Below, piece by piece: positions 8,172 through 47,270 of a DNA stretch of 64,000 nucleotides (position 1 is its first letter; every line of letters begins with the position of its first letter). The stretch is from NCBI GenBank assembly GCA_036867785.1, contig CP145423.1, positions 372,001 through 436,000 on the forward strand, written 5' to 3'. This stretch comes from Plasmodiophora brassicae. Its lineage: Eukaryota. Under the pieces are notes generated by a model that worked only from the letters and a program-made list of their open reading frames with translations, was not told where the DNA came from and did not search any database. The position numbers and the translations under genes were made by a program.

Positions 8172-9119
8172 ATGAGCGCCAGGATTGATCGACCAGCATC
8201 GTCAGCTGCGCTTCCCGAGCTTCGTCGGCCGTTCTTTTCCGATGCAGAGATCCGCGCCGCCTTCCAGACGCTTGACGTCGACGGCAACGGGTTCATATCG
8301 TCGACTGAGCTTCGCGTCGTGCTGGATGCGTGCGGTAAGGCTGTTACTGACGAGGAAATCGACCAGATGATGAGGGTTGTGGATGCGGACGGCGATGGGC
8401 AGTTATCGTTTAAAGAGTTTGGCAACATGGTCAAGCGGGAGATCATGGGATTGCAGTCGGTCGAGATGGGCGACATGGCGGCGGAAGAGTCGAAGCCGGC
8501 CGAGGCGTCCAAGATGAGCTCGATCGACAAGATGAAGAACCGGATCAAGAAGCAGAGCGAGATCTTCGAGTTCGTGTCCAGCCTGGCCCTGGACCTCGGG
8601 CAGCTCGAGGATCTGTTCTTCCAAAAGGTCCAGCGCCTGCCGTCCCGGTACATCCGGTACGATCAGTTCTGCAACATCTTCCGGTGCCCACAATCGCGTT
8701 CGGCTGAGAACGTGTTCACCGTCTATGGCAACGGCAAGGACGGCGAGGTGGACGCCCGCATCTTGATCATGGCCATGTCCGCCGTTCTGCCCGTTAACCA
8801 GCTGAAGAAGGCGAAGTTCTCGTTCCGCCTGTTTGACCACCAGCAGTCCGGAAAGATCGACAGGGACGCCCTGATCGACATTCTCAAGGCGAACCACCTG
8901 ACCATCCTGCCCGAGGAAGTCGACAAGAAGGCCGACTTGATCATGTCGGCGGCTGCCACGCCCGATCAACCCGACGACATCAAGTTCGACAGTAAGCGAT
9001 ACAATCGCATTCAGACAGTGTTTCCAAACTGACAATTCGTCCTCAATGCAGATTTCGTGGAGGTCATCAAACGATTCCCGAATATCGTCTTCCCGGCTTT
9101 CAAACTCAATCAACAATAG
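8172..9119 (+). CDS. Multi-EF-hand Ca2+-binding protein (calmodulin-like lobe + calcineurin-B-like region)
   Basis: EF loops DVDGNGFISSTE and DADGDGQLSFKE; KAKFSFRLFDHQQSGKID. Intron ~8992-9050 gives the C-terminus FVEVIKRFPNIVFPAFKLNQQ*. Confidence 0.85.
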
Positions 9120-9599
9120 TGACGTTTTTAATGCCTCCTCATGCCTTACCTTGCAATACGAGCGCCTTCGGCAGGTGAACACTCTCAGAACGCCTTCTGG
9201 CAGCGAATCCTGGTGTCGATCAGGAGCTCGTCCGTCCAAGGTCATCTAACAATGTTCTGGGCGTTTTCGTCGACTACGAACGCACGGAGATGTTTGCTCC
9301 AAGCTCGCCGTGCTACCGTACCCGTTTATGTCCAGATGACACCTTCTGTCGCCTTTGCCCTGAATAGGCCAGCTTGGTCCGACGTTCGGCGGATCTAACC
9401 GTTAGCATTAACGTTGGACCCGGAAACCTATCAGGTGTTGTCACCATGCAAACGGTTTAGTGATGGTGCTGCTGGTACGACGACGCGTTGACTAACGCTT
9501 CGGCACGATTGGCGAACACGTTCATCCTGAACTTAGGTAGTCCAGCTGGCCATCACCCAGCAGTCAAGCACTTACGCGACCGACGTCCAGAAAGTCGCG

Positions 9600-9767
9600 C
9601 TTGTGGGACAACTGTGCGTCCGTCACCAGGCTCTGGAACTCAGTCGCGAACCTGGCGAGGGTGCCCCTGCTTTGGTAGAGACTTTGAAGCTTCCGGGCAA
9701 CCGTCTCGGCCGGGTTCGGGTTGCCGAATCAGGCCTTGAGCGCATTCGTGAATGCGCTGAAATGCAT
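9600..9767 (-). mobile_element. Degenerate Ty3/Gypsy gag remnant
   Basis: FSAFTNALKA*FGNPNPAETVARKLQSLYQSRGTLARFATEFQSLVTDA fits the Retrotrans_gag pattern; in-frame TGA at 9729-9731. Confidence 0.65.
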
Positions 9768-9848
9768 CAGGGTGACCTTACTGGTTAGGTTCCTATTTGA
9801 CGGGGTGCGGTGGTTGTATTACGTAATTGTTGCCGTCACCGCTCTTGT

Positions 9849-9876
9849 GGTTGCTGTTGTTGTTGTTGTTGTTGTT
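9849..9876 (+). repeat. (GTT)n microsatellite
   Basis: ggttgctgttgttgttgttgttgttgtt seen directly. Confidence 0.9.
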
Positions 9877-10082
9877 ATTCTCTGTCTCAAACGTTGTAGA
9901 ATATGTACTGCGTGGTCCGTAGCACGCACGATGGCTGCTTCACCGGAATTTGCGACGCCCGTTTGATCACGGACTCACGGTGTCCGAAGGCTGTTCCAGT
10001 ATTAGGGCGCATATCCTATACGTCGCGGTGCGCGTTCGGACCGCACGGTGTCCGTGGCGGACTTGCTCTTGCAATCAGTTGT

Positions 10083-10116
10083 GCAATTCGCGAGCGTTGC
10101 AACGCTCGCGAATTGC
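10083..10116. repeat. Perfect 34-bp palindrome
   Basis: gcaattcgcgagcgttg|caacgctcgcgaattgc is its own reverse complement. Confidence 0.95.
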
Positions 10117-32925: not shown

Positions 32926-33522
32926 ATGATGCCAGGGATGAACAGCGGTTCGAGCGCCAGCGCCGGCGGGCACCTGTACCGGTGCGTCGTCTGCACCAAG
33001 GAGTTCGAGGCCGCCTCCAAGCTGACCATCCACATGCGGTCGCACACGCAGGAGAAGCCGTTCGCGTGCGACCTGTGCCAGCGCCGGTTCAGCGTCGAAT
33101 CCAACCTGAAGCGGCACCGCAAGACGGTGCACTCGCCCGAGAAGCTGTTCCACTGCTCCATCTGCGGCAAGGCGTTCAACCAGAAGTGCAACGTCAAACG
33201 CCACGAACTCGTGCACCGGGACACCGACCCGGCCATCACCGCGGCGGCCGTCGCCCTAATCGCACCCGCTCGTCAAAGCAAGCCAGAGAGTCCCGTACCG
33301 CAGCCACGACGAGGCAACGCGTTCCTGCATCCGCACGTTGTCGTGCCGCGTGCAAGGCGCCCGGTGCCCGCCAAGCTGCTGATCACGCCATGGGCGCCGT
33401 CTCCGCTCCTGTACCCGTCCGTACCGATGGAGTACGCCCAACGGCACTGGGCCATCACAGGCCAGGCCCTGCTGAACGAATCGGCGCTGAGGAACCCGTG
33501 CCGGTCGCCGTGCGCCCACTGA
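32926..33522 (+). CDS. C2H2 zinc-finger protein (3 fingers)
   Basis: CVVC..HMRSH, linker TQEKPF, CDLC..HRKTVH, CSIC..HELVH. Confidence 0.92.
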   Translation: MMPGMNSGSSASAGGHLYRCVVCTKEFEAASKLTIHMRSHTQEKPFACDLCQRRFSVESNLKRHRKTVHSPEKLFHCSICGKAFNQKCNVKRHELVHRDTDPAITAAAVALIAPARQSKPESPVPQPRRGNAFLHPHVVVPRARRPVPAKLLITPWAPSPLLYPSVPMEYAQRHWAITGQALLNESALRNPCRSPCAH

Positions 33523-33579
33523 TCAGCATCAACTATTTTAATCATGGATACACTTGTTTGAACGTTTGAGCCTGCAACG

Positions 33580-36500
33580 TCACTTCTTGCCCTTGCTGCT
33601 GTCGAACGATTCCTTGCTGTTGCCGAGGTAGTTCAGCTTCTGCAGCAGCTCGAGCGATTTGATCCAGGCGCGGGCGGTGTCGCCGTTCGGCGCCTCGACG
33701 CTTATCGGCTTCTGTGGGCGACGCCGATCGAAGATGGCGAAGCTGGCGGCAGGGTCGGCTTGCTTCCCGATCAGCGGTTTCCCTTGCAGGGCGGGCGTGC
33801 AGGCGCCCGGGCGCACCTCCATGACGTGGCACAGCGCCAGCGAGCCCGCTTTCGTCTTGGCCAGGTCCTGCCAGACCAGGTACTGGCAGTCCTCCGACAC
33901 CGACAGCAACTTGGACGACCCGCCCGGCATCTTGCGGACGATGACGCCCGCCGTCATCATGTTCAGGACGTCCTTCGGGACGCGATCGCGGATGCTGCCG
34001 ATGTGCGAATCCATGGCGGCCAGCTCGTCCATGCGCGCGATAAACGCCTGGCACGCCTTCAGCGTCGCGCGATTCGACGTATGCCTCGTCGCCAGCTCTT
34101 TCACCAGGCGGCCCGCCTTCTCGCGTACCAGCACCGAGTACGACGCCAGCTCGACGGTGACCTATTCGGGTGCGTTAGCGAACGGCGTCGGCGCGTGCGC
34201 GCCCACGCACCATGTTCAGCATGGCGCGAACGAACTTCTCGACGACGACGGCGGCGTCAGAGTGCTCCGTCAGGGCGGTCAGCATGTCGGGGATGCATCC
34301 TTTGTCGAGCATCTGCCGGGTGCCGTACGGGTGCAGGGCGAGGCGCGACCAGAGGACGGCGCTGTTCTTCACGAACTGGACGTTGTGCGTGAACCGGGTC
34401 AGGCCCTCGGCGACCAGCTTGATGAACGGGTCCGTGTTCCTCGTGACGTTGGCCGGCGCGCACGCCAGCGCCGTCAGCGCCTTGACGCATTCCGACCACA
34501 GCTCGACGTTGTCGGGCGCGCGGATCATCAACGATTCCGGCCAGCGTAGCGCGCCTTGCTCGGCGACCTGCTTGCAGATCGCCGACGTCGATGACGCCAG
34601 AATCCCGATCAGCGCCAGCGCCGGTTTGACGATGCCCATCGACAGCTGGTGTTTCTCGGCGCACGCGATCACCTTGACGACGACGTTCTGGTTCGTGATG
34701 ACGCCGCAGATCGTCTCGTTCAAGGCCAGGTCGGCGTACAGCAGGAGGGCGACCTCCGCCAGCGTCGGGCGCGCCAGCAGCGCGTCGTTCTGCTGCAGGA
34801 GGATCTCCAGACCGCGCAGCTTGCATATCAGGGCCGGGATGGCGCCCGTCGTCGTCTGCGTCGACGCGCACAGCTGGTGCAGGCACCGAAGCACGGCGTC
34901 GACGACGACAACGTTCGACGGGTGCGCCTCCCATAACGAAATGCACAGTTGCACGCCGCGCTGCTTCACGATCGCCTCCTTCTGCTGCTCGCGGCATCCC
35001 GACAGGTTCTGCAGTGTCTGGGCGGCCTGGGACTCGATTAGGGCGCGCGCTCATCCATCTGCCGTGGACGAGGGGATATACCTGCTCGGCCAGGACGACG
35101 TGGTCGGCATGCTTCTTGATGGCGTTGTTGATGAGTTTGACGACATTGTCGTCGACCAGGGCGTTGGCGTTCTCCTCGACGGTCGCAAGCGCCGCAACGC
35201 ATCGCATCGCAACCTGGAAAGCGCGGTGAGTTTGGGGGAGATGCCGACGGGAGCAGGCAATGGGTTGACCTGAAGGGCGAGCGTGTTCTCAGCGACGGTA
35301 CTACGATCGAGGACCTGGGCCGCGGCACGGCCGCCGCCTTTCGCCACGATCTCAACCTTGTTCCGGTTGTTCATGTAGCCGACATTCGTCAAGGCGACAA
35401 GGACGTTGATGGTCAGGTCGACCGGCTCCTCGCCTCGATCGATCAGGCCGACCAGCAGGGGGATGCCGTTATCTGCGCCAGCGCATCAACGTAATGGGAC
35501 CCGGGGATGTTCGACAGTTCGCCAGTACCTTTGACAATCTCGGCAATGTTGGCCGGATTACGGTACGCGACGAGCGCCACCGTCTCGACGCACGACTGGC
35601 GAAGTTCGTCGGCCATCTGACCGACTTTGCTGTAGGCGCGAACCACGTTGAAGATGGCCGGGATGCCGCCGTGTATCCCGATCAGCGATTTCAGCTGGTC
35701 GTCCTCGCTCAACAACGCCAGGATCCTGGTCAGCCTGCACAGATAACAACGACGTCAGCCATGCGCAGATGGGGAGCGTCAGTCGACCGATGCGAACCAG
35801 ATGAGGACTGTCGGGTTCTTGATGTGCACACCGAGGGCGCGAATGATGGCCACGATCCCAGTGCCTCTCCAGACCTGAGGCGCTAATTCGTAAGCATGCA
35901 ACGCCGCTGGTGCCTGGCCTGTCTGTACCGTTCGACGGTCCTTCTGTGGCATTGCGTTGGCAAGCCTCCAGATGCCAGTCGCGATCGCTATCGATAGGTC
36001 CATGTCGTCCGGGAACCTGGTTCGCCTGTCAGAGCACGTACGCAGCGGGCGAACCAGTTGCCGGCCTCACTTGTTGATTGCTTCCAGAAGACGATAGAGC
36101 TGGTCTGTGGCGAGCTTCCCATCGGGGACTTTGGACACGTCTTCGCAAACGGATGCCACGGTGGCCTGATAGTGGTCGATAGGTTCAGTCCAGGGTTGGT
36201 ACCTGACCGGGAATGTACGTACCGCCGAGTCGTTGTACGTCTTGACGTTGGTTGTGGGCATTCCCGCGTCCTATTGCGCAACGTTCACGTTTCCAGCATT
36301 CGTGAGCTAACCACTACGGCCTGACCATGACACGGTCGAGGACTTTCAGCGCCAGAGGCGCTAGTGTCTTATCATTTGCCCATTGCGTCTGCAAGAGGAA
36401 CCTGGACAGCGTCAACCAGGGGTTACATCTCGAATCCGAAGCCGAACGCTGACCTGAGGTTCGACTCGAGGTCGTCGGCTTCCAGAAACCCAGATTCGGC

Positions 36501-39500
36501 CTCTTCCATCCTAACACGCTGCTGGTTAGAATGGGGACGATTTGCACGTTATGGGATACGTTCTGACATCTTCAAGCTCAGCATCGCGATTTTCGTGTTG
36601 CCCGGGTTGGCTCGCATAGTCGAGATGAGGAAACTGGCATCCTGGTCCACGAGCGTTTGCCTCAACCTCTGGAGAACACCATCCCGGATGTTATATGCAC
36701 GTCGAATCAAGAGGGGACGATCGTGCACGCACCTCTTCGTCAACGGATTCCCTGTACTTGGCAATCGCCGTTCGAATCTTCGCCGCAAGGCCCGACAGCT
36801 CACCGTCGCCCATCCAATTCGACTTCAGCAACAGCCTATGCAAGGACATGAGCCTTGCAGACGGACGGACGGCGCACGCGATAGACGCACTCCAGATCCT
36901 CGTCCAAGTGGGATACGACTGCTGCATCCGCTTCGCTCAACCTGGGAAAGAGCGGTGGCCGTCAGGAACCAGCTATCGTTGTCAAGAAATAGGCCCATGT
37001 CGTACAGTTTCAGGCAGGCAACAGCAATGCGTTTGTCATTCGGGTGCGCTCGCAATGCCGACAGGATGACGTCGACTTCCTGGCCACATGCCATGGGAAG
37101 CACCTGACCGCAGACCTGTCGCCTGGTCGCATTCCTCAGGTTGGCCAGGAGGAACACCGATTCCCCGCTGCCGTCCTTCTGCGACAACGTTGCCATCGGG
37201 ATCGCAGCCTCCGCCTTCACCAACATGGACATCAGCTTCATGCCTACACGCTTGCGTTAAATCTGTTGTCCATCGCGCGGAGAAGGTGTACGAACCATCG
37301 GCACAGAGGTCGGCATCGGTTGCGTGTTGGATGACGGCGCTCATGATGGCGCGTTGTAGGTCCGCGTTCGTGCAGAACCCTTGCAGAAGCGATACGTGCT
37401 GGGCCATGGCCAGCAATGTGCCGAACGCAGCACGCATCACATCGATTTCGTTTGCGTGCATCACCATGCATCGCACGACGAACTGGACGACGTCGGGTGT
37501 TAGTGCGGGCAGGATCGACTTCGACGGCGACGACAAGATCAGCTGCAACGCTGACAATGCGATTTCAACCGCCTCTTTTTCGTAGTCCAGCAGGACCGGG
37601 GCCGTCGTCAGACATTGTACAACGCCATGCTCGACGCCCCTGAAACGGTATAACGTCAAACACACGTCCGTTTTGTTCATAGCACCAACTTGGCGCCTTT
37701 ACCTTGGGATGAGGTCAGACCGCACCGCCCCCTGCTTGGCAAACGAGTGGCAAGTCTTCAGAGCTTGTAAGATTATCTCATCACATGCCTAGTCGTTTGT
37801 GGTTAGCATTCGTGCCAGTGCAGAAGGGCAGGAGCCGGACCAACCACGCGCTCGTGGAGGACAGCGTGAATGGCGCTGATCAGGCCCTGTTCGTCTAAAG
37901 CGGCGGCGGCGGCGCCACTCGAATCTTCGTTGATCATCGTGTTCAGCACAGGGATCACCTTGACGCTGAACCCTTCATAGTAGGAGAACCGATGCAGGAG
38001 CTGGATCTGGATTGACGACAACGACGCCGAGTTGCCGGCGAAGAGTGGAGCCATGGCAACTAGAGCGCTCTGGTGTGCCGCGCTCTCATCGGCAACAGCA
38101 GCCGCCTGCCTTGATCGTCAGTACGCGGTGCACGTGCAGTGGGGTGTGATACGAACCTCTAACGCGTCCTTCAGAACTTTGGTGACTCCACCTTCTTTCA
38201 TGATTTGACGGGCGCGGGGATTCTGTTGCTGGAGGCCAGTCAGGAGCTGCGACGATGCCCGGATCTCGCTGAGCAGGGCCTCCTCTTTGACAAGGACGGC
38301 GCGTGATCGTACGGCGGCTCCGACTGGAACCATGCTCGCCGCAGCGGGCAACGGCGGTGGCTGTTGCAGCAGCTGACGTAACGCGTTGGCGTTGTTGCTG
38401 ACCTGTTCGAGTGCCGCCTGCAAGTTGGAAATGTTGTCAGGTATAGGCGTGCGTTGAGCATGTGGACAATAAAACTGACCTTGACGAGGACTGGAAGGTT
38501 CTTGTCGACGTCGAATTTCGCGGTGGAAATCGGGACGCTTTTGGCGGCCGTGCTCAGCAGGAACGCTTCCGACTGAGAGAACAGCATCGATAGAATCGTC
38601 ACCGCATTGGCACTGGCCTCCGACTTCTCGTCGAATGCCGAGAACGCTCCTTGTACCTACCAGAGTGAACACATTAAGCATCGAACGTCGTCGTCGATGG
38701 TACGGCATTGTGATTACCGAATCGGCGAGTGCCTGCTGGCGAGCCTCACCAATACGAGGTTTGCTGTCGACGAGGAGACGCGCGAACGCAATCAGCGCTG
38801 CCTGTTCAGGTGAGTTCGCCACCGCCTGATTAATCAAAGGCGGCAGAACAGCAAGTGCAGCATCGCCGTCGACAAGCGCGACATGCACCTGAAGAGCTGC
38901 AGGTGAGGCGCCGCACAGTATTAGGGCGTCCGTCATATAGTACCGTAAGGAACGGGAGCGCTTCGAGAAGGTGCGCTGTGTCAAGGACCGGCAGCGCTTC
39001 GGTGATGGCGCTGACCCAGGCGGTGTTGACGGCGGATGGCGGGGCGCGCGTGATGCAGCGGACAGCGGCGTTGGCGACTCGTCCATCGCGTCGTATAGCA
39101 TCGCGGAACGTTGCCATCGAGGCGATCCCGGCGATAGAATCCGGGTCGAAGCGGACAAAGTCTAAGTAGGCCTCGAACAGGTTCGCGTTCTGGTGCACGG
39201 CTAGTTTAGCGATCGCCATCCCGTTCAGTTTCGCCTGCGTAAAGTTCAGCGGACGATTCATGGAAGCGAGACTTTCGCCAGGGTACCATTTGAGGGAGGA
39301 CGTCAGGCGATCTTGCGAGGACATGTGCCAGACAACGCAGGGCGTTTACCGGGACAGCGCTCCCGCTACTGACGTCCGTCGCTTTCTGCTGTAGCACGGA
39401 AAGAAGTTTCGCAATTCCATTGTCATCCAAGATCGTCTTGCAATGTGACTCGGAGTTGGATGCCAGCGCGAGGACGCTCGTGTTGAAGATGAGGGACAGC

Positions 39501-42500
39501 GAGTCCGGCGATGATGACGTCGCATCCATGATGGCACGTTGCACTTCATTGAGAATGCCGCGGATCCTTTCGGGCGTGATCATCAGCTCACCAATCGCGA
39601 TGACGTCGTCCTGGATTTCTGGGGCACCATAGTGTTGAATAGCACAAAAAGCTATCGCAGCTAGGCCATTCTCATTGTCGATGGCCTCAAGAGCGGTCTT
39701 CATGTCAGCGCGGATCTAGCACCAAAGTCAGATGTCGGGATGGGATATCACAGCGTTCGAGTTACGCACCAAAGCACGAAGGCTTGAAATGGTGGCCGAG
39801 ACCGCGGTCAGCGACTCGGGGAACTGTCGCAGCCCTCGAATGCATGAGACCACAGCATTGTACTGCTGCGTACCATTCGTGTTTGCGTTTAGGTCCAGCT
39901 GGTACTTTAACGCTGCCGCCCAGCTCGCTAGGCTCTCTGCAGTGCATTGCGTTACCATCGCGAAAACCTGGGATAGGCGCATAACTGACCAACCTGCGTT
40001 GGCCAGAGTGCCTTGCTGTGCGAGGACTTCCTCGAGTTTGTCGGCGAGGGTAGGATCCCATCGCACGATTTCGACGAGTAACGGGTGGACGAACGACGCC
40101 GAAGCCGGATTCGTGCTAAGGGTTTGCAGGAGGAAGGGCAGCAGCCCTTCGCGGACGTTGAGCCGATCGATGACACCCGGGACGGGAAGTAAAGCCGTAA
40201 TGAGGTCAGCGGCTTCTCTCCCGACGCTCACTTCATTTGGAAGGCGGGCCCACGCCGACAGGCATGCTTCGACAGCTCCGCATGCCACGAGGCTCTAAGC
40301 CAGCAAGCGTTAACTCTGCACGGTGACAGTCGAGATGGTCGGTGCACCTCGACATGGTGCTTGTTCTTGGATAGCTGGACAAGGCACCGAAGCAGGTACT
40401 GGATCTGTGCCGAGAACTTATTCGTGCGGTTCAGCTCGGACACCAGTTGCAAGATTGTGCTCGAATCCCGTCCGACCGCAGCGGTGCACGGTTTTCCTCG
40501 GCCCATCAACTTCGACAGCCTGAACAAGTCGGCGATCCGTCACGACCACATGCGCTTACATCACCGTAATGGAACTCACACGGCAGCAGCGTCTGATTGT
40601 ACCGGAATGGCACTGTTGATCGCTGCCAGGCCATCGTTGCGGAACACGACACCGGCATCAGGAGCAAACTCAACGATGCGATCTAAGAACGCAACCGATT
40701 CGTTCGTGCCCTGAATCGCTTGTCGAAGCAGATCGTAGTCAGGTCTGCGTCATGGTTTAAGTCAAACATCATGTGCAAATCCTCGAGGACGGCGACGCAC
40801 CGCCTCGTGATAATGCCTGCGAAATGCTCATTTGCTATCATGCCGACCAAGACGCGGATCAAAGCGCTCTTCTGCGTCGGAGATGATTTTCCGGACAGAA
40901 TTGCGTCGATGATGATGTCGGCGCCACCGCATTCGAAAATGGCTTGAACGTTACGCGTGCTGGCCTGCCACATTACATGTTAGAAGCCGTCGAATAACAC
41001 TGACACGCTCGGGTAGACCTTGATAAAGAATTGCAACTTCTCGGCCGAATGTGGCAGTTCAATTTTCTGCAAGGCGTACCGGATCTGCATGCGATAATCT
41101 GCAGACAGACCGGTTGGGTTATGGGAGCGCCTCACAAAGACACGCCGCACCGACCTGTTTTGGCAATGTACGCGGCGCAGGCCGCATGCAGGACCACGAT
41201 CGCCTCGCGTAATGTCTTCACAAACCGTCTTGTGTTCCGGCCGCGAACGTGTGCCTGAATATGGGTGGCAGCATGTGCCTACACATACCAATTTATCAGC
41301 GAGACATGAAGCAGTAAGAACATTTATCGTCTCCAAACCTTTGTCTCGAATCGGCGACGTTCCAGGCTTTCGAAGGCGTCGGCCTTGATGAAGATCTTGG
41401 AGGCGCCCAGGGCGATACCACTCGATTCTTCCGGCTTCAACTGCTCGAGGAGAATTTCCAGGTTCGGTTTCTTCCCGCGCAGATGCAATGGCATAACACA
41501 CCAGTACCGCTCCAAGAACGTATCTGTTATCCGCATCCTCACTTTCCGACAAACGTACACCAGGTATCACACCAACCTGCTGTTCGACGTTGGGCGTATC
41601 CTTCTCTCCGGATCCGGATCGTCTCCAGCGCCCCAATGTATCTGGGAGGTTGGTGATGTTAGGGCGAAATCCGAGCTCGACGTCTGTCCAGAGGTACCGA
41701 AGCTGGCGATTGACGAGTGGCGCGTCGAACACGTCCGGACGGCAGGCGTCGTTTGACTTGATACATCGGATGAAGTTGGATTGGGTGGTAGCGAGTTTGT
41801 CGCAGAGGTTGACCAGAGAGGTGCGGAACTCGAGAGCCACCGTCGACTTTGTCGCCGTCTTCAGCCGTTTGCCATCCTCGACAACAGCGTCAGCCTCGAT
41901 CGCCGACGCGAATATTGTCTTGAGGAAGTCGTTGTATGAGTTCGCGATCAAGCGCAGCAAGTCTTTCGAAAATCGCTCGCGGTTCTTGGACAGGAAGCCA
42001 GAAACTTCGTACTTCACTTTGCCTGAAGCGCACGTTCACCATCGGGAATGGCAAATCCGAAGAAACAATACCGACCTGCATAGTGCTTGATGTGGAATGC
42101 CGAACCTTTGAAGCGGTCAGGTTCGAGGTATGTCGAATTCGCATGCGTTGTGACGATCTTCTGCAAAAGGGTCTGGTCGGTTCCCTTCGGGAAATGCGCC
42201 TCTTCATTGATGAGGAAGAGTATCCCAACAGGCGGCTATGACGTCGAGTCAAACAGCCGATCCAAGCAAGCGCTAAACGGTAGGCGTGGCGTACGAGATC
42301 AACAAGATCGATGCAACCCTGGTTGTCGGTGAAGGCGACGTGTTCGACTTGAATGCCTTCGGCGGCGTATTCGCGTTGCTCCAACCGAAACACGTACTCA
42401 TTGAACTGTAGTTGCAAACGTTCGTTTGCATAATTGATACACAGCTGCTCGAACGAGTTTCTGGTGAAAATTTCAAAGCCGAACACGTCCAACAGCAGGA

Positions 42501-44347
42501 CGCGGCCGCCATCTGAATTCGTTGGCGTTGTCATCTAATAGGGTTGGCCTAATAAGTTCGTTGGTGCATAACGATGTCCGGTCGTACTTACCGAAACGTT
42601 CAGTTTGTCGACGATCCAGTGGAATACTTTAGCATACAGATGCTGGGCTAGAGTATCGCAGGTATCGACCGACTGGAACTGGTCCAGTGGGACGAAAAAT
42701 GTTTCACCTGGTGACCATCAACCGTATCAGCGTTTGCCGTCTATTTGATGCGCACGAACGCACCTTTGATTACGTTGGTTCGTGAGGTCAGGGTCGTTGC
42801 CAAGCCGGCGGGATCGCATCCCAACAGGTATGCCGCCCAGTTGAGGACTTTGGCATAGACAGTCAATCGAATGCCATCGGCAAGGTTCGCCAAAGCAGGC
42901 TTACCATCGGTATTCTCAACGGCGGAAGATTCCGCTTTGCTGAAGGAGAGGTTCCCTAGCCACAGGATCGCAGCCAGAATGTTGAACACGTTGGCCTGAT
43001 CGGCGGCATTGAACCCGGCCACTGTCATCGATGCCTACACATACTACGAGTCACAAACACATCAGGCCGTTGCGATACGCGCTGAAGACAACCTTCAGCT
43101 TCGCCAGTTCGACCGCGGCGTCTTCACCAGAGATTTCAACGCCCACCGTGTTTTTCAAGTACCTGTAATCGGCCGGTCCTCCCAGCTGCCACATCTCTGT
43201 GTTCCATGTTCAGGCTCCATTTACGTCGGCTCCCATCTGGTGTTGACATACGCCGTTCCGATGGGTCGACGGTCGCCAGCAGGTAGTAGAACGAATGGAA
43301 ATTGCGTTCATCCGGGTTCTGCTTCGTCACACGAAGCTTCTCGAGCAGATCTGTTCGGTTGGTTCAGCGACGCAACCTTTGTCGTTGGACGAAACCTACA
43401 CGTTTCGAACAGCGCGCCGGACACGAATCCATCCCCTTGCAATTGTATCTCCAGGAGCTTCCCGAATCGGCTGGAGTTATTGTTGCGGATGGTCTTCGCG
43501 TTGCCGAACGCTTCCAGGATTGGATTTGTAGCTAGAATCCGCTCGTGGACGGGAAACGACGCTTGAACCATTCCTGGCTTTTGGGCACCAGTCTTAGACG
43601 CCACCTCTGCGATGTACTGGAGAACGATTTTGGCGGCTTCGGTCTTGCCAGCCCCACTCTCGCCACTGATCGCGGTTGTCAACCAAAAGGCGATTACGAA
43701 CATGAAATCCACCGACCTGATAACGATCGACTGGTCACCATCGCCGCGTAACAGGGCACGATAGACGGCATCGGCAGTGGCATAAATGTGTGGCGCATGA
43801 TCGTGCATGTTGGATTCTCTGTAGAGATTGACGGCCTCGGGAGTGTAAAGGTCAATGGGTTTGAACGGGTTCACCGACACTAGGATGCCCCCCATGTATG
43901 TGTAGATGATGTCCTGTTCGAACCGCAAACGCAGATTGTACAGGATCGACGCCGTATGCAACGACTCCATCTCGATCATGTCGTGGTAACCTGTTCACGA
44001 ATTAACGCGTTGACGAGCGTCGGTCTCGACGGGCCCAGTACCGAATTCCGGGTAGGACGGCACGTTTAGACAATCACTGATGGGGAAGATCGATTCCGGA
44101 TGGCCTTCGACGCCGTCTCCGACGACCACCATGTTATCAATCGTCCTCACAATATTCATCTGGAACGGGTCGGTATCGTTCGTGGGGAAACGGCAGCCAC
44201 CTCACCTCCCGGTAGACGAGTTCGGGGTCGGGGACGTAGATCGACCCGACATCCAGCGACATCATCAGCGTCTTCGCCTGGTCGGCACCGACCTTGCCGG
44301 CGCCGTCGCCGTCGGCTTTCGCATCGCCGACGACGTCGATATCCATG
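33580..44347 (-). CDS. Large multi-exon unconventional myosin: motor + IQ + long ARM-like tail + C-terminal PH-like domain
   Basis: [68 protein letters not shown]-like exons continue without an intergenic gap to a PH-like end (YLVWQD..RAWIKSL). The motor call is near certain; single-gene continuity is less so. Confidence 0.8.
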
Positions 44348-44522
44348 ATCGCCTTTATCACTGCGCCGTACGACGCGATCGCCCGCTAATATCTCCTCCG
44401 TCATCAGCATCATCGTCACCAACTCATCATTAAAAGGCGGAACTTGTCGCCCCCCTGTAACCGCGGAATGTGTAGAAGACGCGGCCGCACTCCTCCACGG
44501 CAGTCCCGGCAACGTTACAGGC

Positions 44523-47270
44523 ATGCGGTCGACTGGGGCCATTGCAGTTCGTTTTCGTCATTGTCGTCGGCGGTTGCTATCGGCGGCGGCGGCAGGTGAG
44601 GAGGCGGCGGTCGACAACGCGGCGCTGCTCGACAAGTTCCTGCTGGCGCCCGGCGTGCGAACCGCGATCCGGATCCTGAGGCAGGATAGCGATGCGGACC
44701 GGGGCTGGACCGTGTTCCAGTACGTGCTGGACCGGCTGCGACCGAGGATCCCGTTCTTCCAGGTGATGATGATGTTCTGCAGGCAGCACGCGCCGGCGAA
44801 AGCGCCTGATGTGATGCGCGCTGCGCTGACGCATTCGATCGTGCCGAACGATACCCTGTTCTGCACCATGATCGCTGCGTGCCAGACCGTGCAGCCGCCG
44901 TTGATGGACGAGGTCCGCGATCTCTATCACCGGTGTGGACCGCGTTCCATGAACGTCATATTCGCTGTTGCAAATCTGTGCCGACGGGCAAAGCACCCGG
45001 AGGCGGCGCTGTCTCTTGTATCGGACGCTGCCAAGGGCGGCGTTATCTTCGAAGAGAGGCTCGTAACCCTGCTCTCTGCGTGCTGTGCTGAGGCGAACTG
45101 CCCAGCGGCCGCCGATACGGCGGAACAACTTCTCGCCTTGATCGGATCCGGGCGTATTCGTGCGTATCCGCATCAACCTGCAAATTACGGCAATCTGGTC
45201 AAGGCGTTGATCAACGACGGCAGGATACAGAAAGCGGTGGACACCCTTGAACTGATGAAGAGCATTGGCGTCCAACCGTCGCACCGAATCTACACTCATG
45301 TGCTGTCGGCGTTGTCCAAGCCTGATACTATCCTGCAGGCCATGAGGATGTTCCACATCATGGTTGAAAGCGGTTTTCCTGCCGAGGGTCGCGTGCTGGC
45401 CACGCTTATCTCCGCCTGTGGTCGCGCGAAAGAGCGCCCAGCTTTGCACAGGCTGCATCGCTATGCTGGCGACCAGGACCTCCTGCTGAACGACTACGTC
45501 GTCAGTGGGCTCGTTTCAGCGTTCGCTCAGTGCAATGAGCTCAGCCGAGCAGAATCAATCTTCCAGCGACGCTGTGATGCTTCTACCCCGGACTCTGCCA
45601 TGTTCAACGCGATGATATCGGCATACGTCCATCATAACCAACTTGCCAATGCGATCACGGTTTTCGAAAAGTTACAAGGCGAGGGGCTGTCTGCACCGGC
45701 GACCACGTACACGACCATGATGTACGCGTACGTGAACGAGAATCGGACTTCGGGCGCGATGCAACTGTTTCGTTCGATGATCGACCAAGGCATTCCTGTC
45801 GATACGCCTGCTCTTCGATCACTGATCGCTGCCTGTGGGCGTTGCTCCGACCTCGATGCGGTGCGCGCTCTTCACGAATACGCGTCCAGTCGGACGTCCC
45901 TGGTGGCCGACGTTATCGTGAGTTCGCTTGTGTCAGCGTACGCCGGATGTGGCGAGCTCGGCGCCGCCGAGCGACTGTTTCGAGACAAATGCGAGTTCAA
46001 AGCCGTGTCCACGCTGACGTTCAACGCCATCATCGAGGCGTACGCGAAGAAAAATCGCCTTCGCGACGCGATGGACGTGGTCCAGGTTGCTGTGAAACGT
46101 AATGCTCGCTTATTGGGACATGCGTTCCTATCGTTGGTATCTGCGAGCGATCACTGCTGCGATTTTTCTGCATTGACGGCTCTGTACCAGCACGCACGCG
46201 TTCGTGATCGATCGTTGCTGGTTGATGATGCTGTCACCAGTGCGTTTATTTCCGCTTATGGTCGCGTATGCCACCTTGATGTCTGCGAAGATATTTTCCG
46301 CAGCGTTCAGGTCGCCGTTCCTTCTGGGACTCAACTCCCACAAACGCTCTCTGCGGTCATGCGAGTGTATTCCGACTATGCAATGCTGCCTGTCACTGTG
46401 AAAATCTTCGAGCAGTACAAGGCTGCTGGTCTGCGCCCAACCAAATCTATACTTCGATCTCTGCTGGCTGCCTGCTGTCGCGTTGGCGACATGGACCACG
46501 CGAATATGTTCGCCAAGGAGTTTGCAGACACTTGGCATGTGCCGCTTGATTCGACTCACCAGAAATTCTTGATCGATCTGCACGGACGGTCTGGCAATTT
46601 AGAGGCCGCCGTGTCGATCGCTGCTGACAGCAACGATATTGTCTGTTGGTTGGCTGTCCTGCGCGCCTGCCACAACTTCAAGGACGTCCCACGTGCTAAA
46701 GACGCGCTGGCGAGAATCCTATCACTGCCTTACGTCTCCTCGCACGACTTGACGAACGCGTACCTGTTAGTGTCTTACGTGCTGGCGGACACTGGCCTGT
46801 CTGCAGAGGCGGATGCCGTGGTTGACGAGATGAAGCGCAGAGGCTTGTCGGCGAAGCGTCCCAGTAGGACATCTGTCATCCTATCGGATCGCAGCGTGCA
46901 CTTTCAGTCGGATGACCAGCAATTCTACTCCGATGGGAAACTGATCGACCTGCATTGTGACCTCGTTCAGCGTCTCGAAAGGGCAGGCTACGAGCCAAGC
47001 ATGGCCGTAGTCAGGAATGCGGCGGCCGTCGGCGAGCGCTGTGCCAGACACAGTGTGCTGCTTCACAGCGAGAAGATTGCAATTGCATACGCGCTGAAAG
47101 ACACGGAGCTTCTTCCCGGTCCGATTCGGCTTGTCAAGAACGCGCCCATGTGTCCAGACTGTCATGACTTCGCGAAGCGGGTGTCGTACGTGCTCGAGAA
47201 GCCCGTTCTTGTCCGCGATAGCTTACGACAGCACGCCTTTCAAGGCGGTGCTTGCTCATGTGGCGCTTAA
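44523..47270 (+). CDS. PPR protein with C-terminal DYW-type cytidine-deaminase domain, probable mitochondrial presequence
   Basis: Intronless 915 aa; many PPR motifs (FNAMISAYVHHNQLANAITVFEKL); AGYEP, HSEKIAIAYAL, IRLVKN..CPDCHDFAK, VRD..HAFQGGACSC. Confidence 0.93.
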   Translation: MRSTGAIAVRFRHCRRRLLSAAAAGEEAAVDNAALLDKFLLAPGVRTAIRILRQDSDADRGWTVFQYVLDRLRPRIPFFQVMMMFCRQHAPAKAPDVMRAALTHSIVPNDTLFCTMIAACQTVQPPLMDEVRDLYHRCGPRSMNVIFAVANLCRRAKHPEAALSLVSDAAKGGVIFEERLVTLLSACCAEANCPAAADTAEQLLALIGSGRIRAYPHQPANYGNLVKALINDGRIQKAVDTLELMKSIGVQPSHRIYTHVLSALSKPDTILQAMRMFHIMVESGFPAEGRVLATLISACGRAKERPALHRLHRYAGDQDLLLNDYVVSGLVSAFAQCNELSRAESIFQRRCDASTPDSAMFNAMISAYVHHNQLANAITVFEKLQGEGLSAPATTYTTMMYAYVNENRTSGAMQLFRSMIDQGIPVDTPALRSLIAACGRCSDLDAVRALHEYASSRTSLVADVIVSSLVSAYAGCGELGAAERLFRDKCEFKAVSTLTFNAIIEAYAKKNRLRDAMDVVQVAVKRNARLLGHAFLSLVSASDHCCDFSALTALYQHARVRDRSLLVDDAVTSAFISAYGRVCHLDVCEDIFRSVQVAVPSGTQLPQTLSAVMRVYSDYAMLPVTVKIFEQYKAAGLRPTKSILRSLLAACCRVGDMDHANMFAKEFADTWHVPLDSTHQKFLIDLHGRSGNLEAAVSIAADSNDIVCWLAVLRACHNFKDVPRAKDALARILSLPYVSSHDLTNAYLLVSYVLADTGLSAEADAVVDEMKRRGLSAKRPSRTSVILSDRSVHFQSDDQQFYSDGKLIDLHCDLVQRLERAGYEPSMAVVRNAAAVGERCARHSVLLHSEKIAIAYALKDTELLPGPIRLVKNAPMCPDCHDFAKRVSYVLEKPVLVRDSLRQHAFQGGACSCGA

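What the first reader, a model, noticed from the sequence alone, without database searches (positions are those of the whole stretch)
33580..44347. Myosin motor fused to a giant ARM + PH tail resembling the apicomplexan glideosome connector GAC
Seen: intact motor motifs and an IQ motif. I traced in-frame GT-AG splicing from the IQ exon (~41270) through ~40580 into helical-repeat exons. Similar exons continue with no intergenic gap for ~7 kb to a PH-like end; not every junction was checked. Known: GAC is a large armadillo-repeat protein with a C-terminal PH domain linking F-actin, adhesins and phosphatidic acid, and is separate from myosin. Inference: motor and membrane connector in one polypeptide, a possibly undescribed motility or invasion module.
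Basis: partly seen in the sequence, partly recalled or inferred. Interest (0 to 1): 0.8.

Follow-up and report, generated by a model that had tools for sequence, protein, structure and literature searches.

The report
Plasmodiophorid myosin with armadillo-PH tail
This is one real, expressed 44-exon gene of the clubroot organism that joins a working-looking myosin motor to a very long armadillo-repeat tail ending in a lipid-binding PH domain; it resembles the apicomplexan connector GAC in layout only, not by any specific sequence or fold signal.

Summary
On the minus strand, ATG 44346 to stop 33580, lies one gene of 44 exons and 43 GT-AG introns (46-64 nt). It encodes 2790 aa, identical to a public protein named only 'Myosin motor domain-containing protein [Plasmodiophora brassicae]'. 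Intron-free contigs in three runs carry the 3' tail exon and motor exon 1 in one record, and their lengths fit the model to the base. A Spongospora transcriptome protein is colinear over its whole length (46.5% identity).

Layout: full myosin head with intact P-loop and switches I and II, one IQ, about 1900 aa of armadillo repeats, then a C-terminal PH domain.

The tail aligns end to end with a stand-alone ARM+PH family, named members mostly Rhizaria (hhalign 100%, E 4.5e-70).

Specific GAC kinship is not shown. TgGAC tops the family's PDB hits, but with a per-repeat score like any ARM protein. The tail alone finds nothing in PDB. The PH domain is phospholipase-C-like, and GAC's PH is not hit. 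Fold searches rank beta-catenin and designed ARM proteins above GAC.

The organism is a rhizarian, not an apicomplexan. Most likely this is a lineage-specific, membrane-anchored unconventional myosin made by gene fusion. Its myosin class and function are untested.

The parts
33580..44346 (-). Coding sequence of one myosin heavy-chain gene: 44 exons, 43 GT-AG introns (46-64 nt, sum 2394 nt), 2790 aa, stop codon at 33582-33580
   Evidence: Model built. The intron sum and four segment sums equal the arithmetic of the spliced contigs. The translation is identical to P0024 when intron 20 is 39993-39937.
32960..44414 (-). Approximate extent of the spliced contig. The 5' end near 44414 is by arithmetic from X12 record 4 (9062 nt). 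The 3' end lies at 32924-32960, and the 3' UTR overlaps a convergent zinc-finger ORF.
   Evidence: table 8. The X12 end is inferred from record length and offsets and was not printed. Contigs cannot show true RNA ends.
41384..43985 (-). Myosin motor domain (aa 89-754; exons 3-14), with P-loop, switch I, switch II and SH1 helix motifs intact
   Evidence: Pfam PF00063, E 1.5e-210, profile positions 2-679 of 679. Motifs. Best solved relatives are myosin X, XV, VIIa, Va and II.
43666..43716 (-). 51-nt in-frame intron that splits the P-loop region (QSIVI | SGESGAGKT)
   Evidence: A gap of 17 residues against the Spongospora ortholog. It is one of 2 GT..AG candidates of 51 nt in the scanned range, the other cutting through the P-loop codons. 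It is needed for the 592-nt segment sum.
41228..41260 (-). Single canonical IQ motif ([11 protein letters not shown], aa 776-786) in exon 15
   Evidence: Regex match. The consensus used is recalled. It is conserved in position in P0001.
33622..40817 (-). Tail (aa 887-2777), colinear end to end with a stand-alone ARM+PH protein family. It consists of armadillo-type three-helix repeats.
   Evidence: hhalign 100%, E 4.5e-70, 1696 columns, tail 50-1940 against family 13-1838 of 1845. hmmsearch 326 bits in three colinear stretches. AF2 of aa 1965-2790 has mean pLDDT 84.6. Z 26-29 to designed ARM proteins and beta-catenin.
33622..33945 (-). C-terminal PH domain (aa about 2670-2777) of phospholipase-C type
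   Evidence: AF2 models. Profile A3 against PDB: PLC-delta1 1MAI at E 2.7e-12, PLC-gamma at 2e-08, ELMO1 at 5e-04. Foldseek places PLC-gamma and PLC-delta first. Pfam PH_12 is weak at E 0.0027.
39937..39993 (-). Intron 20 as in the public models. My own scoring preferred 39955-39899, also 57 nt, which changes 13 residues (aa 1105-1117).

Best explanation
This is a lineage-specific unconventional myosin heavy chain of plasmodiophorids, about 305 kDa by my estimate from its 2790 aa. It arose by fusing a catalytically intact-looking motor plus a one-IQ neck to a complete copy of an 'armadillo solenoid + C-terminal PH' protein. That protein occurs on its own mostly in Rhizaria among the named sources. 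Shown: one spliced contig and one ORF; an intact motor; an ARM tail; a PH fold; end-to-end homology of the tail to the stand-alone family; and the same fusion in Spongospora. Inferred: the PLC-type PH domain anchors the tail on an acidic-lipid (phosphoinositide) membrane. The long ARM superhelix serves as an extended scaffold for cargo or partner binding. The head pulls on F-actin. The protein would then move or tension a membrane relative to actin, in the manner of membrane-bound myosins I and X, and not as a passive actin-adhesin bridge like GAC. No coiled coil is apparent by eye between the neck and the repeats (not computed), so a monomer is my guess.
For: One gene: X6 record 14 holds window 32924-34159 at record positions 1-1236 and 44206-46000 at 8889-10683. 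The 8888 nt between them equal genomic length minus my 43 introns. X12 record 4 (9062 nt) and X1 record 2 (8021 nt) show the same joints. X15, which holds 0.99 of the sampled words, keeps the introns: 0 of the 15 printed joints appear in it. Identity to P0024, and colinearity with the Spongospora protein P0001 at 46.5% identity over the whole length. The Schwelm et al. passages say the Spongospora transcripts were de novo assembled (PMC4471660); that P0001 itself comes from that assembly is my inference. Motor. Tail family. Of the 12 hits scanned with Pfam, 9 are ARM+PH proteins of 1309-2275 aa without a myosin head and 1 (P0001) has the head. In one search, 0 of 30 family hits carry PF00063. 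In one search, 2 of 3 hits do (the two plasmodiophorid proteins). PH. The residues aligned to PLC-delta1 K30 and R40 are basic in the window protein (K77 and K84 of exon 44); the PLC-delta1 numbering is recalled. In the tree the tails group with the stand-alone proteins P0021 (Cercozoa sp. MAG) and P0013, with support 1.0.
Against: No function has been tested. The runs with spliced contigs are only guessed to be RNA, and contigs cannot show transcript ends or isoforms. X1 retains intron 35027-35081. The equivalents of PLC-delta1 K32 and R56 are P and A in the window protein, so phosphoinositide binding may be weak or of different specificity. The myosin class was not determined because no reference class set was available. 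Only two species with the fusion were found, and the word-based searches scored only about 8000 candidates each. Whether the organism also keeps a stand-alone ARM+PH gene could not be checked, because no genome is held.
Confidence: 0.78

Rival explanations
1. The tail, and the stand-alone ARM+PH family as a whole, is a true homologue of apicomplexan GAC. On this view plasmodiophorids welded an ancestral SAR connector to a motor, and the protein links F-actin, membrane and adhesins as GAC does.
For: The family profile A1 finds TgGAC (8bt6, 8c4a) first of 219 PDB matches, at 343 and 334 bits. The stretches are colinear (profile 11-576 to GAC 17-592; 270-1478 to 919-2275; 1497-1711 to 2363-2582). 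8C4A is TgGAC by the paper's own data statement (PMC10125020). The order is the same: giant ARM array, then a C-terminal PH. In Foldseek, 8bt6 gives the longest alignment and the highest TM-score normalised to the query, for both models (0.51; 0.53).
Against: By my arithmetic the score per repeat for GAC (about 343 bits over 53 repeats) equals that for beta-catenin (about 73 bits over 12; the repeat number is recalled). The N-terminal profile A4 gives GAC 139 bits, spread over internal repeats, against 128 for a designed ARM protein, and its N-terminus-to-N-terminus stretch scores only 7 bits. The tail alone gives 0 PDB hits at E<=1, and single exons give none to GAC. The PH profile has 31 hits at E<=10, none of them GAC, with PLC-delta1 best. 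Beta-catenin ranks above GAC (rank 10) for the ARM model, and PLC PH domains rank above GAC (rank 29) for the PH model. A genome survey calls GAC apicomplexan-specific and absent from chromerids (PMC9250747, passages).
Confidence: 0.17
2. Two neighbouring genes (a short myosin and an ARM+PH gene) are wrongly joined by annotation or by contig assembly.
For: Contigs can merge neighbouring genes: X6 record 14 also runs on into the + strand PPR gene. The runs are not on record as RNA.
Against: The frame stays open across all 43 spliced junctions, with no stop between the IQ and the repeats. There is no unspliced gap between exons 14 and 20. Three runs show the same joints. The Spongospora protein has the same fused order.
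Confidence: 0.03
3. The tail is a generic ARM scaffold with no membrane role, for example a cargo adaptor or regulatory auto-inhibitory module, and the PH fold serves protein binding.
For: Two of the recalled PLC-delta1 ligand-binding positions are not basic in the window protein (and 64 alignments). ELMO1's PH, a protein-binding PH domain, is also hit at E 5e-04. Only generic ARM clusters come up in the Atlas.
Against: The strongest sequence and fold matches are to lipid-binding PLC PH domains. K77 is invariant across the 15 aligned sequences, and position 84 is basic (R in at least 90% of rows, K in the window).
Confidence: 0.15

Closest known systems
Stand-alone ARM+PH proteins, named members mostly Rhizaria (unnamed family; e.g. 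Paulinella chromatophora, Euglypha rotunda, Cercozoa sp. M6MM MAG, Lapot gusevi; also one Ploeotia transcriptome and many metagenome proteins)
   Same: The whole tail (aa 887-2777) aligns end to end with them, including the C-terminal PH domain and its G/K/D/G/E/W invariant columns. Size matches: about 1800-2275 aa against about 1900 aa.
   Different: They have no myosin head (0 of 30; 9 of the 12 scanned are ARM+PH only). The plasmodiophorid tails sit on a long branch and are about 20% identical to them.
[quoted passage not shown]
   Same: A giant armadillo-type solenoid followed by a C-terminal PH domain. GAC is the top PDB hit of the related family's profile.
   Different: GAC is separate from its motor and reported as apicomplexan-specific (PMC9250747). 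No similarity beyond generic ARM repeats could be shown. The PH here is PLC-like. In this protein actin is engaged by a motor head, whereas GAC binds F-actin passively through its N-terminal repeats (recalled from the GAC papers; I saw abstracts and passages only).
Membrane-binding unconventional myosins (myosin X with PH domains; myosin I with a lipid-binding tail)
   Same: A motor plus short neck plus a lipid-binding PH-type module. Myosin X, XV and VIIa are the best-scoring solved motors (542, 509 and 505 bits).
   Different: There are no MyTH4-FERM, TH1 or coiled-coil modules. Instead there is an ARM array of about 1800 aa. Class membership was not tested by phylogeny.
Armadillo-repeat kinesins of plants (ARK/KINUA; recalled, not examined here)
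   Same: A cytoskeletal motor fused to armadillo repeats.
   Different: They are microtubule motors with a short ARM region and no PH domain. This is an analogy only.

Membership tests
Myosin superfamily (Pfam PF00063) | Full-length motor domain | tested here: met
   E 1.5e-210, profile positions 2-679 of 679, residues 89-754.
Myosin superfamily (Pfam PF00063) | Nucleotide-binding motifs: P-loop GESGAGKT, switch I NxNSSRFGK, switch II DxxGFE (consensus forms recalled) | tested here: met
   Found at residues 179, 239 and 460.
Myosin superfamily (Pfam PF00063) | Light-chain-binding IQ neck | tested here: met
   One match, [11 protein letters not shown], at 776. No second canonical IQ was found by the same regex.
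Named myosin class (I-XXXVII of Sebe-Pedros/Krabberod; 1-79 of Kollmar) | Motor groups with that class in a phylogeny of reference motors | not testable with these tools
   No reference class set could be obtained. Only a ranking against solved motors was possible. The main texts of PMC3942036 and PMC5583752 hold no 'armadillo' or 'ARM'. Figures and supplements were not seen (closed).
Class XIV (apicomplexan glideosome motor) | Closest relatives are class XIV motors | tested here: inconclusive
   The 60 best of 150 PDB matches are myosins X, XV, VIIa, Va, Vc, II and Ic and muscle myosins, plus two chains named only 'Motor domain of myosin' and 'Unconventional myosin heavy chain'. No chain named as class XIV is listed. 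Absence from a top-60 list does not exclude the class.
GAC (glideosome-associated connector) | Giant armadillo/HEAT-type solenoid | tested here: met
   The AF2 model of aa 1965-2790 shows three-helix repeats. Z 26-29 to ARM proteins. The rest of the tail is assigned by profile only.
GAC (glideosome-associated connector) | C-terminal PH domain | tested here: met
   PH fold in both models.
GAC (glideosome-associated connector) | Sequence homology to GAC orthologues beyond generic ARM repeats | tested here: not met
   The tail gives 0 PDB hits at E<=1. For family profile A1 the per-repeat score equals that of generic ARM proteins. For N-terminal profile A4 the matching N-terminal stretch scores 7 bits, and a designed ARM protein scores 128 against 139 for GAC.
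GAC (glideosome-associated connector) | GAC-type PH domain | tested here: not met
   GAC is not among the 31 hits at E<=10 of PH profile A3, and PLC-delta1 is best. By fold, 8bt6 is rank 29, behind PLC PH domains.
GAC (glideosome-associated connector) | Separate polypeptide; binds F-actin, adhesin tails and phosphatidic acid | not testable with these tools
   Here the module is fused to a motor. Binding activities need experiments.
Rhizaria-centred stand-alone ARM+PH family (alignment A1) | End-to-end colinear profile match, including the PH domain | tested here: met
   hhalign 100%, E 4.5e-70, 1696 aligned columns. hmmsearch gives 326 bits (window protein) and 334 bits (Spongospora).
Rhizaria-centred stand-alone ARM+PH family (alignment A1) | No other domain N-terminal of the ARM array | tested here: not met
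   The window protein carries a motor and IQ in front.
Phospholipase-C-type PH domain | Profile and fold match to the PLC-delta/gamma N-terminal PH | tested here: met
   1MAI at E 2.7e-12 and PLC-gamma at 2e-08. PLC-gamma and PLC-delta are the top Foldseek hits at E 9e-07 to 1e-05.
Phospholipase-C-type PH domain | Basic inositol-phosphate-binding residues (K30, K32, R40, R56, K57 of PLC-delta1; numbering recalled) | tested here: inconclusive
   By the and 63 alignments the window protein keeps the K30, R40 (as K) and K57 equivalents, and has P and A at the K32 and R56 equivalents.

The most novel reading that the evidence does not exclude
The stand-alone ARM+PH family and this myosin's tail are the long-missing non-apicomplexan relatives of GAC. 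An actin-membrane connector would then predate Apicomplexa within SAR. Plasmodiophorids would have fused it to a motor, giving a one-polypeptide force-transmission unit used in zoospore or plasmodial motility or in host-cell entry.
Probability: 0.15. Interest if true: 0.75.

Novelty: new variant of a known kind. Interest (0 to 1): 0.42.

Why it matters
Myosin tails decide where a motor works. No paper returned by my searches describes a tail of about 1900 residues made of armadillo repeats with a PLC-type PH end. It is shared by two genera of crop-pathogenic plasmodiophorids, whose cell motility and host entry are poorly understood. The finding also brings out a stand-alone ARM+PH family, mostly rhizarian among the named sources, with the same layout as GAC. 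The paper I read treats GAC as apicomplexan-specific. Convergence or deep homology would both be informative about how cells couple actin to membranes. For annotation, it corrects an older public model that keeps two in-frame introns.

Tried and rejected
- No RNA holder is listed for the stretch. The kind of X1, X6 and X12 is a guess. I rely only on what their contigs bridge.
- No whole genome is held, so paralogues and a stand-alone ARM+PH gene in the same organism could not be sought.
- The first word-based search with exon 43 and 'longer' found nothing. It searched only proteins of 511-2000 aa.
Exon 43 alone gave only generic ARM clusters.
- The first DP gene model was wrong at 7 junctions. 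It was corrected with length constraints and the orthologue.
- VIA second look: GAC is not among the 50 rows shown, and 82 of 1000 chains were not aligned. I take this as inconclusive, not as absence.
- The profile search A1 for apicomplexan GAC sequences returned none (7998 candidates scored), so no reciprocal search from GAC was possible.
- Pseudogene reading rejected: the ORF is intact, is spliced in the contigs, and is conserved across genera.
- Literature searches returned no paper on a myosin with an ARM+PH tail, on GAC relatives in Rhizaria, or naming the accessions. The library lacks most subscription journals.
Full report
**What is in the sequence**

Stop-to-stop ORFs on the minus strand between 44385 and 33580 form a chain of short coding pieces. 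The pieces from 43994 to 40980 hit Pfam Myosin_head. The last piece (34161-33580) weakly hits PH_12 at E 0.0027. The pieces in between hit nothing at E<=0.01, apart from one chance-level ScpB match.

**Transcript evidence**

Nineteen of the 24 listed public runs hold at least half of the sampled words of 34400-44390, and 18 of the 19 hold 0.59-0.64 of them. The other five hold next to none. One run (X15) holds 0.99. None of the runs is on record as RNA, so their kind is a guess.

I laid four runs on 32000-46000.
- X15 covers the stretch with unspliced contigs.
- X1, X6 and X12 each have a long contig that skips short segments ending CT..AC on the + strand, which is GT..AG on the minus strand.
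- 44 joints were reported. 15 were printed, and all 15 are absent from X15.
- X6 record 14 (12116 nt) places window 32924-34159 at record positions 1-1236 and 44206-46000 at positions 8889-10683. One record therefore holds both the last tail exon and motor exon 1.
- That record runs on into the neighbouring + strand gene, so contigs can merge neighbours. X12 breaks between the two genes (record 4 of 9062 nt; record 5 starts at 44486).

**Gene model**

I learned splice-site weights and codon usage from the 17 introns readable and ran a dynamic programme. I then constrained it with intron-length sums derived from the contig coordinates: 627, 400, 559 and 592 nt for four segments.

The last segment needed help from the Spongospora orthologue (tblastn) and from reading the sequence. 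This showed a 51-nt in-frame intron in the P-loop region and a 55-nt intron at 43251-43197.

The final model has 44 exons and 43 GT-AG introns of 46-64 nt, which sum to 2394 nt. That equals what X6 record 14 requires to the base, and all four segment sums are met. It encodes 2790 aa from ATG 44346, the first ATG after an in-frame stop, to the stop at 33582-33580.

The model differs from database protein P0024 only in 13 residues, caused by two alternative 57-nt placements of intron 20. With 39993-39937 the window translates to P0024 exactly.

An older public model (P0069, 2828 aa) keeps two in-frame 57-nt introns. One of them, 36222-36166, is skipped in the contigs.

Introns of about 60 bp are typical of this organism according to its genome paper, which reports an average of 4 per gene (PMC4471660, passage). 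This gene has 43.

**Identity**

The sources name P0024 'Myosin motor domain-containing protein [Plasmodiophora brassicae]'.

A full HMMER scan of 1.8 billion representatives with exon 43 gave 22 hits at E<=0.001. The best is P0001 at E 8.6e-73, a 2666-aa Spongospora subterranea protein. It has a full myosin head followed by ARM matches. It aligns with the window protein over its whole length at 46.5% identity. Identity is highest in the motor and in the last 800 residues.

The genome paper states that the Spongospora transcripts were assembled de novo. I take P0001 to derive from that assembly, and therefore count the fusion as seen at transcript level in a second genus.

**Motor**

Pfam covers the whole head, and the P-loop, switch I, switch II and SH1 helix motifs are intact. 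One canonical IQ follows at residue 776.

Against solved structures the motor scores best with myosin X (542 bits), then XV, VIIa, Va and Dictyostelium II. No chain named as class XIV is among the 60 shown.

I could not assign a class. Their main texts mention no armadillo domain. The rhizarian classes XXXV-XXXVII are described there without tail details that I could read.

**Tail**

Nine of the 12 further hits I scanned are proteins of 1309-2275 aa with many ARM-type matches and a C-terminal PH domain, but no motor. By their source names they come from Paulinella, Euglypha, a Cercozoa MAG, Lapot, one Ploeotia transcriptome and metagenomes.
- A profile of ten of them (A1) scores the window protein at 326 bits, in three colinear stretches that run to the C-terminus.
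- hhalign of the two plasmodiophorid tails against A1 gives 100% probability, E 4.5e-70 and 1696 aligned columns: tail 50-1940 against family 13-1838 of 1845.
- The tail is therefore a complete copy of such a protein.
- None of the 30 family members found with the profile carries a myosin head.
- In a FastTree of 22 sequences and 782 columns, rooted at midpoint without an outgroup, the two tails sit on a long branch next to P0021 and P0013 with support 1.0.

**Is it GAC-like?**

For:
- A1's best PDB matches are 8bt6 and 8c4a (343 and 334 bits), in colinear order.
- 8C4A is TgGAC.

Against:
- The tail alone finds nothing in PDB at E<=1. Exon 43 finds only weak importin-alpha and designed-ARM matches (E 0.04 or worse), the PH exon only one chance-level match (E 0.94), and neither finds GAC.
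- GAC has 53 repeats (the passage names 'AHR53'). Its score per repeat is about that of beta-catenin (my arithmetic).
- A profile of the family's N-terminal 260 positions (A4) matches GAC mostly at internal repeats. It gives 139 bits in total, against 128 for a designed ARM protein. The N-terminus-to-N-terminus stretch scores 7 bits.
- A PH-only profile (A3) finds PLC-delta1 (E 2.7e-12), PLC-gamma, ELMO1 and pleckstrin. GAC is not among its 31 hits at E<=10.
- The AF2 model of aa 1965-2790 (pLDDT 84.6) is a regular ARM solenoid plus PH. Foldseek ranks beta-catenin first and 8bt6 tenth. VIA gives Z 26-29 to designed ARM proteins and beta-catenin.
- For the PH model (pLDDT 83.1), PLC-gamma and PLC-delta rank first and 8bt6 ranks 29th.

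I conclude that the resemblance to GAC is one of layout. Deep homology is neither shown nor excluded.

**Mechanism**

Shown: motor, neck, ARM array and PH fold in one polypeptide.

Inferred: the PH domain binds an acidic lipid. The residues aligned to PLC-delta1 K30, R40 and K57 are basic, and those aligned to K32 and R56 are not (the numbering is recalled). The ARM array would act as a long scaffold, and the head works on F-actin. This is the logic of membrane-bound myosins and not that of GAC, which bridges actin passively.

**Novelty**

The gene is in public databases under an uninformative name. My searches found no paper naming its accessions. They found none describing a myosin with an ARM+PH tail, or GAC relatives in Rhizaria. 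One survey calls GAC apicomplexan-specific.

I rate it a new variant of a known kind: a myosin with a new tail, made by fusion with a family that otherwise occurs on its own and is mostly rhizarian among the named sources.

Noticed in passing
window 44349-47270 (+): An intron-free 973-aa ORF with many PPR repeats and a C-terminal DYW nucleic-acid deaminase domain (PF14432, E 3.4e-18). It lies head to head with the myosin gene; the contigs of the two genes end about 70 nt apart (about 44414 and 44486). From recall, DYW-type PPR proteins are the plant organellar C-to-U editing factors and are rare in protists.
   Followed up: partly
window 32872-33522 (+): A C2H2 zinc-finger ORF (PF00096, E 7.4e-15), convergent with the myosin gene. 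It lies inside what the contigs show as the myosin's 3' untranslated stretch (32960-33579), so that 3' extension may belong to this gene.
   Followed up: partly
window about 32026-32130: A short high-copy element. Depth in the DNA-like run is about 12356 at 32110, against about 82 nearby. Contigs of all four runs break here with many different loose ends. The ORF over 31114-32013 carries a repeated peptide.
   Followed up: no
window 35027-35081 (-): The contig of run X1 keeps this 55-nt intron (piece 34209-35211 is continuous), while X6 and X12 skip it. Retention would shift the frame shortly before the last 465 residues.
   Followed up: no
window 42848-42904 and 36166-36222 (-): The older public model of this gene (P0069, 2828 aa) reads two in-frame 57-nt introns as coding. 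The second is skipped in the spliced contigs. The first is needed as an intron for the length arithmetic, and is absent from the Spongospora orthologue.
   Followed up: yes
proteins P0003-P0036 (not in the window): A family of stand-alone proteins of about 1800 aa, named members mostly Rhizaria, with an ARM array and a PLC-delta-like PH domain (conserved ...GRCTPQLQRK... segment). One member carries the evidently wrong source name 'intracellular sulfur oxidation DsrE/DsrF family protein'. Longer stramenopile relatives carry a WW domain instead.
   Followed up: partly
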